DNA of 64,000 nucleotides from Escherichia coli (GTDB taxonomy: Bacteria > Pseudomonadota > Gammaproteobacteria > Enterobacterales > Enterobacteriaceae), in the NCBI RefSeq assembly GCF_048403405.1, contig NZ_CP183129.1. The stretch is one strand, 5' to 3'. Position numbers and translations under genes: made by a program. This document shows positions 19,738 to 37,822 of the stretch, one piece after another (positions within the stretch are counted from its first letter, which is position 1; every line of letters begins with the position of its first letter). Below the pieces are notes generated by a model. The model saw only the letters and a program-made list of their open reading frames with translations, ran no database searches and was not told the DNA's origin.

Positions 19738-19822
<85 letters not shown>

Positions 19823-19856
19823 TCTCAAGCATTACCTCAAAATTTGAATTACCCTT

Positions 19857-19941
<85 letters not shown>

Positions 19942-20160
19942 TCACTTTCAAAAGTCCCTGAACTCTCAAACGAATCCGTAATTAAATATTCTGCCCAAGC
20001 GGGGAAGGATGAGAAGCTTCGACCAAGGTTCGACTCGAGCGCCAGCGAGAGAGCGTTGCCGCAGGCAACGACCCGAAGGGCGAAGCGCGCAGCGCTGAGT
20101 AATCCTTCCCCCACCACCATCACTTCCTGTAAATACTCAAAACCTGTTACTCCGAGCTAA
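19942..20160 (+). ncRNA. rtT: rtT-like tRNA-operon distal repeat region (contains tpr)
   Basis: Contains a second copy of the tRNA 3'-end-like motif aatccttcccccaccaccatcac (about 20100..20122) and repeated attctgcccaa; extent approximate. Confidence 0.45.
20009..20098 (+). CDS. tpr: protamine-like small basic protein
   Basis: 29-codon [32 protein letters not shown] inside the rtT repeat; arginine-rich. Confidence 0.5.
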
Positions 20161-34859: not shown

Positions 34860-35960
34860 ATGTCAAATGCTCAAGAGGCGGTAAAAACCCGCCACAAGGA
34901 GACTTCGCTTATTTTCCCGGTTCTGGCGCTGGTAGTGCTGTTCCTGTGGGGAAGCAGCCAGACACTACCAGTGGTCATTGGCATCAATCTTCTTGCTCTT
35001 ATTGGTATTTTAAGTAGCGCCTTTAGTGTTGTCCGTCATGCGGACGTATTAGCCCATCGCCTGGGAGAACCTTACGGTTCGCTTATTCTTAGCCTTTCAG
35101 TGGTTATTCTTGAAGTCAGTTTGATTTCAGCTTTAATGGCAACCGGCGACGCCGCGCCAACGCTAATGCGTGATACGCTCTATTCAATCATTATGATTGT
35201 TACCGGTGGGCTGGTTGGCTTTTCATTATTGTTGGGCGGACGCAAGTTTGCCACCCAATATATGAATCTGTTTGGTATCAAGCAGTATTTAATTGCGTTG
35301 TTCCCCCTGGCGATAATCGTACTGGTATTTCCAATGGCTCTGCCTGCGGCGAATTTTTCAACCGGTCAGGCGTTACTGGTAGCATTAATTTCTGCGGCAA
35401 TGTATGGCGTATTTTTGCTGATCCAGACCAAAACGCATCAAAGTTTATTTGTCTACGAGCACGAAGATGACAGTGATGATGACGACCCGCACCACGGTAA
35501 ACCGTCTGCCCATAGCAGCCTTTGGCATGCTATCTGGTTGATTGTCCATCTGATTGCCGTTATTGCAGTCACCAAAATGAACGCCAGCCCGCTGGAGACA
35601 TTGCTCGACAGCATGAATGCCCCTGTCGCCTTTACTGGCTTCCTGGTGGCTCTGTTGATTCTGTCGCCGGAAGGTTTAGGTGCGTTAAAAGCAGTGTTGA
35701 ACAACCAGGTCCAGCGCGCGATGAATCTGTTCTTTGGTTCAGTGTTAGCAACCATTTCGCTTACCGTACCTGTCGTCACGCTAATTGCCTTTATGACGGG
35801 TAACGAATTGCAGTTTGCACTTGGTGCGCCAGAAATGGTAGTGATGGTGGCCTCTTTAGTGCTGTGCCATATCTCCTTCTCCACCGGACGTACTAACGTG
35901 CTCAATGGCGCAGCGCATCTGGCACTGTTTGCCGCCTATTTGATGACGATATTTGCCTGA
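34860..35960 (+). CDS. chaA: Ca2+/H+ (Na+/H+) antiporter
   Basis: Start at MSNAQEAVKTRHKE (366 aa) inside the 395 aa ORF-track entry; CaCA-family multi-TM protein. Confidence 0.93.
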   Translation: MSNAQEAVKTRHKETSLIFPVLALVVLFLWGSSQTLPVVIGINLLALIGILSSAFSVVRHADVLAHRLGEPYGSLILSLSVVILEVSLISALMATGDAAPTLMRDTLYSIIMIVTGGLVGFSLLLGGRKFATQYMNLFGIKQYLIALFPLAIIVLVFPMALPAANFSTGQALLVALISAAMYGVFLLIQTKTHQSLFVYEHEDDSDDDDPHHGKPSAHSSLWHAIWLIVHLIAVIAVTKMNASPLETLLDSMNAPVAFTGFLVALLILSPEGLGALKAVLNNQVQRAMNLFFGSVLATISLTVPVVTLIAFMTGNELQFALGAPEMVVMVASLVLCHISFSTGRTNVLNGAAHLALFAAYLMTIFA

Positions 35961-36249
35961 CAGTTATATCTCCTCCGATGACAGAAATCGGGGGAGATAA
36001 TATAAATTCCTGCTTATTGTATTTCTTCATACTACCTGAACAGGTTGTTAATCAGAATTGCGAGCCTGTACCAGAACCTGCACGAAACCACTGCAACAGC
36101 TGTTGAAAAGCCGGAATGTACTCTTTATTGCAAACATTTCAGGGATGAAGTGAAGATGAATTGAGACGTAGTATCCACACCAAGCCGGCGTTATCCGGTG
36201 AGGCGCAATGTTGCGGGGGCTTTATCCCTGGTGGCATTGGTTGCTGGAA

Positions 36250-36317
36250 AGAGAAAACCCCCGCACGTTGAGAGGTAAAACCTGACAACAGAACGGGGGC
36301 TAATCTTGAACCATCAA
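36250..36317 (-). ncRNA. rdl: predicted Rdl antisense RNA, copy A (coordinates approximate)
   Basis: Minus-strand promoter ttgtaa-N17-tattct (-10 at 36325..36330), stem cccccg/cggggg plus T-rich tract about 67 nt downstream; antisense to the ldr leader. Confidence 0.4.
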
Positions 36318-36365
36318 CAATTCAAGAATAGCCGCAAAATGTTGTCATTACAACAAGGCGGCTAT

Positions 36366-36473
36366 ATGACGCTCGCGCAGTTTGCCATGATTTTCTGGCA
36401 CGACCTGGCAGCACCGATCCTGGCGGGAATTATTACCGCAGCGATTGTCAGCTGGTGGCGTAACCGGAAGTAA
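36366..36473 (+). CDS. ldr: Ldr type I toxin (35 aa membrane peptide)
   Basis: MTLAQFAMIFWHDLAAPILAGIITAAIVSWWRNRK; followed by hairpin ggccgcaggtgtaacagcctgcggcc plus TTTTTT (36523..36554). Confidence 0.9.
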   Translation: MTLAQFAMIFWHDLAAPILAGIITAAIVSWWRNRK

Positions 36474-36784
36474 GGTGAAAACGGGCGTCAGGCTGCCGTG
36501 ATGGCAATATGCGCCCGAAACCGGCCGCAGGTGTAACAGCCTGCGGCCTTTTTTGTCTTTATCTCTTCCACAAGTAAATATTGGCAACCCGAGCTGGAAG
36601 CATCATCCAGAGCACTCATGAAACGACTGTAACAGCTGTTGAAAAACCGGAATGCACTCTTCATTGCATACATTTCAGGGATGAAGTGAAGATGAATTGA
36701 GTCGTAGTATCCACACCAAGCCGGCGTTATCCGGTGAGGCGCAATGTTGCGGGGGCTCTATCCCTGGTGGCATTGGTTGCTGGA

Positions 36785-36852
36785 AAGAGAAAACCCCCGC
36801 ACGTTGAGAGGTATAACCTGACAACAGAACGGGGGCTAATCTTGAACCAGAA
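36785..36852 (-). ncRNA. rdl: predicted Rdl antisense RNA, copy B (coordinates approximate)
   Basis: Same promoter and terminator-like elements as copy A, shifted by 535 bp. Confidence 0.4.
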
Positions 36853-36900
36853 CAATTCAAGAATAGCCGCAAAATGTTGTCATTACAACAAGGCGGCTAT

Positions 36901-37008
36901 ATGACGCTCACGCAGTTTGCCATGACTTTCTGGCACGACCTGGCAGCACCGATCCTGGCGGGAATTATTACCGCAGCGATTGTCAGCTGGTGGCGTAACC
37001 GGAAGTAA
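36901..37008 (+). CDS. ldr: Ldr type I toxin (35 aa), second copy
   Basis: MTLTQFAMTFWHDLAAPILAGIITAAIVSWWRNRK (two substitutions relative to copy A); terminator hairpin 37058..37089. Confidence 0.9.
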   Translation: MTLTQFAMTFWHDLAAPILAGIITAAIVSWWRNRK

Positions 37009-37104
37009 GGTGAAAACGGGCGTCAGGCTGCCGTGATGGCAATATGCGCCCGAAACCGGCCGCAGGAGTAACAGCCTGCGGCCTTTTTTGTATCCGGCCC
37101 CATG

Positions 37105-37822
37105 AATAAATATCCTCCGGCATAGCCGGAGGTTTTTCAAATGCGCCTATAAGGCTCTCTTACCAGCCGCGCCCTAACAGGCGCACACGATCTGACATTT
37201 GCATCCAACTTCGTTACTTACGGCCCGTAAACGGGCTGCCCGGATAGGGAATCGATAACTGCTCTCCCATTTTATCCTCTTCAAGCTGGTGCTTTATGTA
37301 ATCCTGTATCTTCGCCGTGTTCTTACCCACCGTATCGACGTAGTACCCTCTGCACCAGAACTCCCTGTTCCTGTATTTGAATTTCAAATCACCAAACTGC
37401 TCGTAAAGCATCAGACTGCTTTTCCCTTTCAGATATCCCATAAAGCCGGATACGCTCATTTTGGGCGGGATCTCCACAAGCATATGGATATGATCTGCAC
37501 AGCATTCAGCTTCCAGAATCCGTACACTTTTCCACTCACACAGCTTTCTCAAAATACTGCCTATTGCTCTACGCTTCTCTCTGTAGAACACCTGTCTTCG
37601 GTATTTTGGCGCAAAAACTATGTGATATTTACAGTTCCATCGGGTGTGCGCTAAGCTCTTTTCGTTCCCCATTGGGACCCCCTTTTGATTTCTTGTTTGA
37701 CACTTGCAGTTGCCAGACCGCAAGGTGTTTTAACAAATCAAAAGGGGTTTTAATAACTGGCTTAAAGCTGAAAGCTTTCCGGAACCCCCAGCCTAGCTGG
37801 GGGTTTTCTGTGCACAAAAAAG
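37105..37822 (-). mobile_element. IS200-family insertion sequence, copy 2
   Basis: Identical to 2044..2761 over the full length; flanks differ (ldr terminator on one side, kdsA terminator on the other). Confidence 0.9.
37214..37672 (-). CDS. tnpA: IS200/IS605-family Y1 (HuH) transposase TnpA
   Basis: Same protein as 2153..2611. Confidence 0.9.
   Translation of the reverse strand: MGNEKSLAHTRWNCKYHIVFAPKYRRQVFYREKRRAIGSILRKLCEWKSVRILEAECCADHIHMLVEIPPKMSVSGFMGYLKGKSSLMLYEQFGDLKFKYRNREFWCRGYYVDTVGKNTAKIQDYIKHQLEEDKMGEQLSIPYPGSPFTGRK

What the first reader, a model, noticed from the sequence alone, without database searches (positions are those of the whole stretch)
36250..36317. Predicted cis-antisense Rdl RNA with its own promoter and terminator (copy B at about 36785..36852)
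On the minus strand, a ttgtaa-N17-tattct promoter lies about 40 nt upstream of the ldr start codon. About 67 nt downstream there is a cccccg/cggggg stem followed by ttttctcttt. Size and position (antisense to the ldr 5' leader) match the roughly 66 nt Rdl antitoxin RNAs. The elements are conserved in both repeat units.
Basis: inference. Interest (0 to 1): 0.4.

Follow-up and report, generated by a model that had tools for sequence, protein, structure and literature searches.

The report
Two known Rdl antitoxin RNA genes
The interval and its twin 535 bases away are two ordinary copies of the well-known E. coli rdl gene, a roughly 66-base antisense RNA that keeps the small Ldr membrane toxin from being made; it is correctly identified but not new.

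Summary

- **Identity.** The Rfam rdlD model (RF01813) matches the minus strand full length at 36252-36317 (83.6 bits) and 36788-36853 (87.0 bits), against a gathering score of 50.
- **Promoter and terminator.** The 29-base promoter string occurs exactly twice in the window, with 0 expected by chance.
- **Context.** The window is E. coli chromosome: chaA, LDR unit A, LDR unit B, IS200C, kdsA. Unit A matches K-12 LDR-C (rdlC) at 96.9% and unit B matches K-12 LDR-A (rdlA) at 98.2%. The middle K-12 unit is absent.
- **Distribution.** The rdl-plus-promoter segment is found in 5422 of 5426 complete E. coli genomes.
- **Position of the RNA.** Each RNA is antisense to bases -115 to -48 of the ldr leader and does not cover the ldr ribosome-binding site, so repression must be indirect.
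- **Mechanism.** Published reviews call the mechanism unresolved and cite an unconfirmed leader reading frame, ldrX. My analysis shows the ldr ribosome-binding site is predicted to sit in a hairpin. A positionally conserved UUG preceded by a G-run lies inside the Rdl footprint. This fits a Sok/mok-like coupling model but is inference only.

Interest is low.

The parts
36251..36318 (-). rdl copy A RNA, orthologue of K-12 rdlC. The 5' end at G36318 is set by homology; the 3' end lies in the U-tract at about 36250-36252.
   Evidence: Rfam RF01813 hit at 36252-36317, 83.6 bits. Aligned to K-12 rdlA/B/C. Fold -27.7 kcal/mol, z = -4.6.
36325..36353 (-). rdl copy A promoter: -35 TTGTAA (36353->36348), 17-nt spacer, -10 TATTCT (36330->36325).
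   Evidence: Read directly. The pattern occurs only twice in the window, 0 expected. Identical in the five units aligned, and both hexamers are unchanged in all 13 LDR units aligned. A weak consensus match (8/12), not called by the generic scan.
36248..36299 (-). rdl copy A compound stem-loop and intrinsic terminator: CCCCCG/CGGGGG outer stem, GUUG/CAAC and AGGU/ACCU inner stems, then UUUUCUCUUU.
   Evidence: structure line of the Rfam alignment.
36787..36853 (-). rdl copy B RNA, orthologue of K-12 rdlA; differs from it by 1 nt, in the apical loop.
   Evidence: Rfam RF01813 hit at 36788-36853, 87.0 bits; alignment; fold z = -5.4.
36860..36888 (-). rdl copy B promoter: -35 36888->36883, -10 36865->36860.
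   Evidence: a 29-mer identical to copy A.
36784..36835 (-). rdl copy B stem-loop and terminator with its U-tract.
36366..36473 (+). ldr copy A, the 35-aa toxin MTLAQFAMIFWHDLAAPILAGIITAAIVSWWRNRK, identical to K-12 LdrA and LdrC. This is the target gene of rdl A.
   Evidence: ORF list; RefSeq annotation of an identical locus; translation.
36901..37008 (+). ldr copy B, the 35-aa toxin MTLTQFAMTFWHDLAAPILAGIITAAIVSWWRNRK. This is the target gene of rdl B.
   Evidence: Pfam Ldr_toxin PF13940, E = 7.7e-25.
36328..36365 (+). Predicted hairpin in the ldr A mRNA (AUAGCCGC...GCGGCUAU) that buries the ldr ribosome-binding site and ends at the AUG. The rdl promoter lies on its opposite strand. The copy B equivalent is at 36863-36900.
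   Evidence: Minimum-free-energy folds; consensus fold of 11 units, in which all stem pairs are invariant or show a single G-C to G-U change. Prediction only.
36306..36308 (+). UUG at -60, preceded by GGGGG (36295-36299), inside the Rdl A footprint. It is a candidate leader (ldrX-like) start. In copy A it is in frame with ldr; in copy B (36842-36844) its reading frame stops at the AUGA that overlaps the ldr start.
   Evidence: Inference; no expression data.
36014..37091 (+). Two tandem LDR units, A at about 36014-36549 and B at about 36550-37091. Each carries ldr, rdl and an ldr terminator (36523-36548 and 37058-37083).
   Evidence: Direct repeats with spacing 536/535; terminators; unit identities to K-12 LDR-C and LDR-A.

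Best explanation
These are two functional copies of the E. coli rdl gene, the RNA antitoxin of the Ldr/Rdl type I toxin-antitoxin system. They lie in a two-unit LDR array between chaA and kdsA.

Each copy is transcribed from its own weak sigma-70 promoter on the minus strand. Transcription stops at an intrinsic terminator that is also the body of the RNA, giving an RNA of about 66-68 nt with a 16-nt single-stranded 5' tail and one long compound hairpin.

Because it is encoded opposite the ldr leader, the RNA is perfectly complementary to bases -115 to -48 of the ldr mRNA. Pairing prevents synthesis of the 35-aa Ldr membrane toxin.

What is shown here:
- identity, strand, position and intact signals of both copies;
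- a cognate intact ldr gene next to each.

What rests on the literature, for RdlD only:
- the RNA is expressed and counteracts LdrD toxicity;
- the RdlD/ldrD duplex forms in vivo and is cut by RNase III.

What I infer:
- The ldr ribosome-binding site is closed by a local hairpin just downstream of the Rdl footprint.
- Ribosomes must enter at an upstream start inside the footprint, the conserved GGGGG-N6-UUG at -60, and translate through that hairpin to open it.
- Rdl blocks that entry, in the way Sok blocks mok.
For: - Rfam RF01813 hits are full length, on the minus strand, at 83.6 and 87.0 bits against a gathering score of 50.
- The RNAs are near-identical to the annotated K-12 rdlA/B/C, promoter and terminator included.
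- Whole units are 96.9% identical to LDR-C and 98.2% to LDR-A.
- The promoter 29-mer occurs twice, with 0 expected.
- The terminator scan is positive and the folds are stable.
- Every ldr-motif match with enough flank, in other Escherichia genomes and in one contig labelled Bacillus sp., has an rdlD hit on the opposite strand just upstream of the ldr start.
- The rdl promoter / ribosome-site hairpin segment is 91.5% identical between the ABC-type and D-type units, against 67.6% for the toxin coding sequence.
- The segment is present in 5422 of 5426 complete E. coli genomes.
- Literature: RdlD co-expression suppresses LdrD toxicity, and RdlD overlaps the 5' UTR rather than the ribosome-binding site (PMC4147584). 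An RdlD/ldrD dsRNA of about 21 nt is captured in vivo, and both RNAs are slightly stabilised in rnc mutants (PMC7373196).
- For the inferred step: the ribosome-site hairpin appears in single-sequence and consensus folds. The UUG at -59/-60 is present in all 12 units.
Against: - No transcript data exist for this strain.
- The promoter matches the consensus at only 8 of 12 positions and fails the generic scan.
- All stem pairs of Rdl and of the ldr leader hairpins are invariant across the available units. There is no compensatory change (0 of 56 pairs), so comparative data neither support nor refute the structures.
- The frame of the UUG-initiated ORF relative to ldr is not conserved. It ends at AUGA in 4 units and is in frame with ldr in 8. 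That is awkward for a single coupling mechanism.
- Reviews state the mechanism is unknown or that the ldrX model is unconfirmed (PMC8309996, PMC4147584).
Confidence: 0.93

Rival explanations
1. Rdl acts mainly by mRNA destruction. The 66-bp Rdl/ldr duplex is a substrate for RNase III, and cleavage in the leader inactivates or destabilises the ldr mRNA. Translation block is secondary.
For: A p19-captured dsRNA of about 21 nt lies within the rdlD/ldrD overlap. Full-length ldrD and rdlD are slightly more abundant and longer-lived in rnc mutants, and a short ldrD species appears only in rnc mutants (PMC7373196, read).
Against: The effects on level and half-life were described as slight. Reviews list the mode of action as inhibition of protein synthesis (PMC4147584). 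Cleavage 48-115 nt upstream of the AUG would not by itself remove the coding region.
Confidence: 0.2
2. Rdl represses without any leader ORF. Binding to the leader changes ldr mRNA folding, or blocks a ribosome standby site, so that the hairpin over the ribosome-binding site stays closed, as in tisB/IstR-1.
For: The ldr leader is predicted to be unusually structured (z = -5.4 and -5.1). The ribosome-binding site is paired. The 25-codon ATG(-158) ORF is frameshifted in K-12 LDR-C and in L005a, and the UUG(-60) ORF has no fixed frame, so no leader peptide is conserved.
Against: No direct evidence. The UUG with its upstream G-run is conserved in position in all 12 units. The AUGA stop/start overlap is present in all 12 complete units; only the truncated L009 contig reads ATGC.
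Confidence: 0.25
3. The conserved sequence serves only the plus strand, as a structural element of the ldr 5' UTR. The minus strand is silent in this strain, and the promoter-like and terminator-like elements are by-products.
For: The reverse complement of a hairpin is also a hairpin. The promoter is weak (8/12). The -10 and -35 coincide with the plus-strand ribosome-site hairpin, which could explain their conservation.
Against: The sequences are nearly identical to K-12 loci annotated as rdl ncRNA genes. RdlD has been detected on Northern blots and as in vivo dsRNA (PMC7373196; PMC4147584 citing Kawano 2002). The U-tract following the stem exists only on the minus strand.
Confidence: 0.03

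Closest known systems
E. coli K-12 rdlC / rdlA (b4424, b4420), Rfam RF01813 rdlD family; Ldr/Rdl type I toxin-antitoxin system
   Same: Same locus between chaA and kdsA. Same strand relationship to ldr, same promoter hexamers, same stems and U-tract, and the same 35-aa toxin family. Copy A's Ldr is identical to LdrA/LdrC.
   Different: There are two units rather than three. Copy A has a 1-nt insertion and other changes in the 5' tail (GTTGATGG). Copy B has one loop change (GUUAUACC against GUUGUACC), and its Ldr carries A4T and I9T relative to LdrA. An IS200C lies next to the array. These variants are shared at 100% identity with many sequenced E. coli.
hok/mok/Sok of plasmid R1
   Same: A cis-encoded, short antisense RNA complementary to the toxin mRNA leader rather than to the toxin's own ribosome-binding site. 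Repression through an upstream overlapping reading frame has been proposed for it (PMC4147584).
   Different: There is no sequence relationship. No conserved leader peptide or fixed reading frame was found here. The 3'-end processing and fold-back inhibition known for hok have not been shown for ldr.
Sib/Ibs and other duplicated chromosomal type I systems
   Same: Tandemly duplicated toxin-antisense units. The variation between paralogues sits in single-stranded recognition regions, here the 5' tail and the apical loop.
   Different: Sib RNAs overlap the whole ibs coding region, whereas Rdl overlaps only the 5' leader.

Membership tests
Rdl antitoxin RNA (Rfam RF01813 rdlD) | Sequence-plus-structure match to the family covariance model at or above the gathering score (50 bits) | tested here: met
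   83.6 bits (36252-36317, minus) and 87.0 bits (36788-36853, minus), both covering model positions 1-66 of 66.
Rdl antitoxin RNA (Rfam RF01813 rdlD) | Encoded antisense to the 5' untranslated leader of an ldr toxin gene, without overlapping its ribosome-binding site or start codon | tested here: met
   The RNAs end 48 nt upstream of the ldr ATGs at 36366 and 36901. K-12 has the same geometry. In the other Escherichia loci an rdlD hit also lies on the opposite strand just upstream of ldr.
Rdl antitoxin RNA (Rfam RF01813 rdlD) | Own promoter and Rho-independent terminator giving an RNA of about 66 nt | tested here: met
   Met at the sequence level only. TTGTAA-N17-TATTCT is identical to K-12. 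A stem plus U-tract was called by the terminator scan. Distance from start to U-tract is 66-68 nt.
Rdl antitoxin RNA (Rfam RF01813 rdlD) | Expressed as an unstable small RNA that suppresses Ldr toxicity | not testable with these tools
   Known for RdlD from the literature (PMC4147584, PMC7373196). No expression data are available for this strain or for these copies.
Rdl antitoxin RNA (Rfam RF01813 rdlD) | Secondary structure supported by compensatory base changes | tested here: inconclusive
   All stem positions are invariant in 13 Rdl sequences. In the ldr leader, 0 of 56 pairs show a change on both sides. Invariance says nothing for or against the structure.
LDR (long direct repeat) unit / Ldr toxin (Pfam PF13940) | Repeat unit of about 535 bp carrying a 35-aa hydrophobic peptide with the Ldr signature | tested here: met
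   Repeat spacing is 536/535 nt. Pfam Ldr_toxin E = 7.7e-25 over residues 1-35 of 35. RefSeq names it an Ldr family toxin. NCBIfam has no model for it.
hok/mok/Sok-type translational coupling (ldrX model) | A leader reading frame whose start lies under the antisense RNA and which overlaps the toxin start | tested here: inconclusive
   A UUG at -59/-60 with an upstream G-run lies inside the Rdl footprint in all 12 units. Its frame ends at AUGA in 4 units and is fused in frame to ldr in 8, copy A included. I could not retrieve the original definition of ldrX.

The most novel reading that the evidence does not exclude
The positionally conserved GGGGG-N6-UUG at -60, inside the Rdl footprint, may be the real ribosome entry site for ldr expression. 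Ribosomes starting there would unwind the hairpin that buries the ldr ribosome-binding site.

In some units (copy B, K-12 A/B/C) they would stop at the AUGA and reinitiate. In others (copy A here, and all LdrD-type units) they would read straight into ldr and make a 55-aa N-terminally extended toxin. A single-base indel in the Rdl 5'-tail region would then switch a unit between the two modes.
Probability: 0.15. Interest if true: 0.4.

Novelty: already known. Interest (0 to 1): 0.08.

Why it matters
It matters mostly as an annotation point. The RefSeq record of an identical locus (strain 7/2) annotates the two ldr toxin genes but no rdl RNA, so the antitoxin half of the module goes unannotated there.

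Biologically the locus is ordinary, since nearly every E. coli has it. The one open question it touches is how Rdl represses a ribosome-binding site that it does not cover. Reviews in 2014 and 2021 still call this unresolved. The comparative observations made here narrow the experiments needed but do not answer it:
- the ribosome-binding site sits in a predicted hairpin;
- a conserved UUG lies under the Rdl footprint;
- no leader peptide is conserved.

Tried and rejected
- **Generic sigma-70 scan.** It found no promoter in 35900-37300, because the rdl promoter matches only 8 of 12 positions. I kept the promoter on the strength of its identity to K-12 and its invariance across units.
- **NCBIfam scan of both Ldr peptides.** No family was found. 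Pfam was used instead.
- **Search for diverged homologues.** A back-translated M-x-FWHDLAAP pattern run over 100,044 species genomes gave only 6 loci, all Escherichia-type. That is too little divergence for covariation. The stems are invariant, so no structural test was possible.
- **The 25-codon ORF at ATG -158 (36208-36285) as ldrX.** Rejected as a conserved peptide because it is frameshifted in K-12 LDR-C and in L005a. It also ends 80 nt before the ldr start.
- **The long GTG(-167) ORF of copy B and K-12 A.** Rejected as a general feature. A TAA in the Rdl-loop position interrupts it in copy A and in K-12 B and C.
- **Primary sources.** I could not retrieve Kawano 2012, Fozo 2008 or the original ldrX definition. 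Kawano 2002 and Gerdes & Wagner 2007 were not looked up. Literature statements therefore come from secondary reviews.
- **Literature search for rdlA/B/C expression.** It returned mostly unrelated Streptomyces and insect 'Rdl' papers.

Full report
**What is at the coordinates.**

Read on the minus strand, 36360-36240 is ...cgccTTGTAAtgacaacattttgcggcTATTCTtgaattGTTGATGGTTCAAGATTAGCCCCCGTTCTGTTGTCAGGTTTTACCTCTCAACGTGCGGGGGTTTTCTCTTTcc....

- The stem is present: CCCCCG 36299->36294 pairs with CGGGGG 36263->36258, followed by the tail UUUUCUCUUU at 36257->36248.
- The same elements recur 535-536 nt downstream. There the -35 is at 36888->36883, the -10 at 36865->36860, the stem at 36835->36830 / 36799->36794, and the tail at 36793->36784.
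- The 29-nt promoter string occurs exactly twice in the 64-kb window, with 0.00 expected from shuffles.
- The terminator scan called both minus-strand sites.
- The 66-68 nt RNAs fold to -27 to -28 kcal/mol with z-scores of -4.5 to -5.4, and none of 200 shuffles did as well.
- One caveat: the promoter matches the consensus at only 8 of 12 positions and fails the generic sigma-70 scan.

A gathering-threshold scan of the whole window against Rfam 15 gave two rdlD (RF01813) hits. Both are on the minus strand and both cover model positions 1-66 of 66. They lie at 36252-36317 (83.6 bits, E = 3.9e-16) and 36788-36853 (87.0 bits, E = 5e-17), against a gathering score of 50.

**Genomic identity.**

- The 1.3-kb region is 100% identical to many complete E. 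coli chromosomes. In strain 7/2 the annotated gene order is chaB, chaA, ldr, ldr, IS200C tnpA, kdsA.
- K-12 MG1655 has three units at the same site, annotated ldrA/rdlA, ldrB/rdlB and ldrC/rdlC.
- Whole-unit alignment shows that window unit A is 96.9% identical to K-12 LDR-C, and unit B is 98.2% identical to K-12 LDR-A. Both are about 71% identical to LDR-D. The window therefore lacks the middle K-12 unit.
- The promoter, the body of the RNA and the terminator are identical to K-12 except in two places: the first 8 or so bases of the RNA and one apical-loop base.
- Homology with the annotated K-12 5' ends puts the starts at G36318 (copy A, which has a 1-nt insertion) and G36853 (copy B).
- The RefSeq record examined (strain 7/2) annotates the two ldr genes but no rdl RNA.
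- The 131-nt rdl-plus-promoter segment is present in 5422 of 5426 complete E. coli genomes, with a median of 2 places per genome and a maximum of 9.

**The partner gene.**

- Each rdl lies 48 nt upstream of, and antisense to, an intact 35-aa ORF (36366-36473 and 36901-37008).
- Copy A's peptide is identical to K-12 LdrA and LdrC.
- Copy B's peptide matches Pfam Ldr_toxin PF13940 at E = 7.7e-25 over its full length.
- Each unit ends in a strong plus-strand terminator (36523-36548 and 37058-37083).

**Comparative data.**

- A back-translated M-x-FWHDLAAP pattern was scanned over one genome from each of 100,044 species. It returned six loci, all Escherichia or Escherichia-like.
- Every match with enough flanking DNA has an rdlD hit on the opposite strand just upstream of ldr, at 77.6-90.4 bits.
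- Across 13 Rdl sequences, every stem position is invariant. All variation sits in the 5' tail, the internal bulge and the apical loop. That pattern fits target-recognition elements that differ between paralogues. It also means there is no covariation test of the structure.
- Between ABC-type and D-type units, the segment carrying the rdl promoter is 91.5% identical and the 5' leader core is 90.3% identical. The Rdl-complementary segment is 78.9% identical, and the toxin coding sequence only 67.6%. The non-coding leader is under stronger constraint than the peptide.

**How it probably works.**

The literature available to me says the following.

- RdlD co-expression suppresses LdrD toxicity.
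- RdlD overlaps the 5' UTR, not the ribosome-binding site.
- A leader frame, ldrX, was proposed by analogy with mok/hok, but 'further work is needed' (PMC4147584).
- A 2021 review says the mechanism 'is currently unknown' (PMC8309996), while another 2021 review presents the ldrX model as fact (PMC8167048).
- The RdlD/ldrD duplex is captured in vivo as an RNase III product of about 21 nt. Both RNAs are slightly stabilised in rnc mutants (PMC7373196).

My own analysis adds four points.

- **The leader is highly structured.** I inferred the ldr transcription start at about -184, from the TAGTAT/TAGAAT -10 and the onset of conservation. From there the leader folds with z = -5.4 and -5.1.
- **The ribosome-binding site is predicted to be closed.** The ldr ribosome-binding site and the bases up to the AUG pair in a hairpin (36328-36365, AUAGCCGC...GCGGCUAU). 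Its stems are invariant in 11 units. The rdl -10 and -35 lie on the opposite strand of this hairpin, which helps explain why both are frozen.
- **A candidate start lies under Rdl.** A UUG at -59/-60, preceded by GGGGG with a 6-nt spacer, lies inside the Rdl footprint in all 12 units. A ribosome starting there would translate through the hairpin.
- **The reading frame is not conserved.** In copy B and K-12 A/B/C the frame stops at the AUGA that overlaps the ldr start. In copy A, L006 and all D-type units it is in frame with ldr, which predicts a 55-aa extended peptide.

The other leader ORFs do not hold up. The ATG(-158) 25-codon ORF is frameshifted in K-12 LDR-C and in L005a. The long GTG(-167) ORF is interrupted by a stop codon in copy A and in K-12 B and C.

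So a Sok/mok-like block of an upstream entry site is the best-fitting model, but it remains inference. A standby-site or refolding model, and RNase III-driven decay, remain live rivals.

**Verdict.**

The feature is already known and almost universal in E. coli, so interest is low. The only residual value is the missing rdl annotation in the RefSeq record examined (strain 7/2) and a sharper set of experiments for the unresolved repression mechanism.

Noticed in passing
window 37105-37822 and 2044-2761: Two 718-bp segments that are 100% identical, each carrying an IS200C element. Rfam STnc490 hits lie at 37682-37805 and 2621-2744, and the tnpA ORF lies at about 37214-37672 on the minus strand. 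Compared with K-12, the copy next to the LDR array is an insertion of about 705 bp (37111-37815) between the unit B terminator and kdsA.
   Followed up: partly
window 36014-37091: The LDR array has two units where K-12 has three. Unit A matches LDR-C and unit B matches LDR-A, so the middle unit is missing. Across complete E. coli genomes the number of places matching rdl plus promoter ranges from 1 to 9.
   Followed up: partly
window 36306-36473 (+), around 36314: Copy A has a 1-nt insertion in the segment complementary to the Rdl 5' tail. This puts the TTG at 36306 in frame with ldr and creates a 55-codon open frame, MNHQQFKNSRKMLSLQQGGY + Ldr. E. coli E69 (L006) has the same variant, and all LdrD-type units have the same in-frame relationship through a different indel.
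   Followed up: partly
window 36198-36250 (+) and copy B 36734-36786: The leader core of about 80 nt upstream of the Rdl footprint (GGTGAGGCGCAATGTTGCGGGGGCT...GGTTGCTGGA) is almost invariant between the ABC-type and D-type units. It is more conserved than the toxin coding sequence. It contains a GCGGGGG that could compete with the downstream ACGGGGGC for pairing with CCCCCGC.
   Followed up: partly
L009 (NZ_JABWSY010000055.1, 503 nt): A short, low-coverage contig labelled Bacillus sp. carries an E. coli-type ldrD/rdlD unit (rdlD hit at 90.4 bits). It is most likely contamination of that assembly. Its ldr second codon reads CCG instead of ACG.
   Followed up: no
window 19738-20119 (+): Two tRNA hits of 82 nt each, followed by an RtT RNA element (137 bits). 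This is likely the E. coli tyrT-tyrV-rtT locus, which fits the chromosomal neighbourhood.
   Followed up: no
window 37114-37132: A perfect 8-bp GC-rich hairpin (CCTCCGGCATAGCCGGAGG) scores as a terminator on both strands. It lies just inside the IS200C end nearest the LDR array.
   Followed up: no
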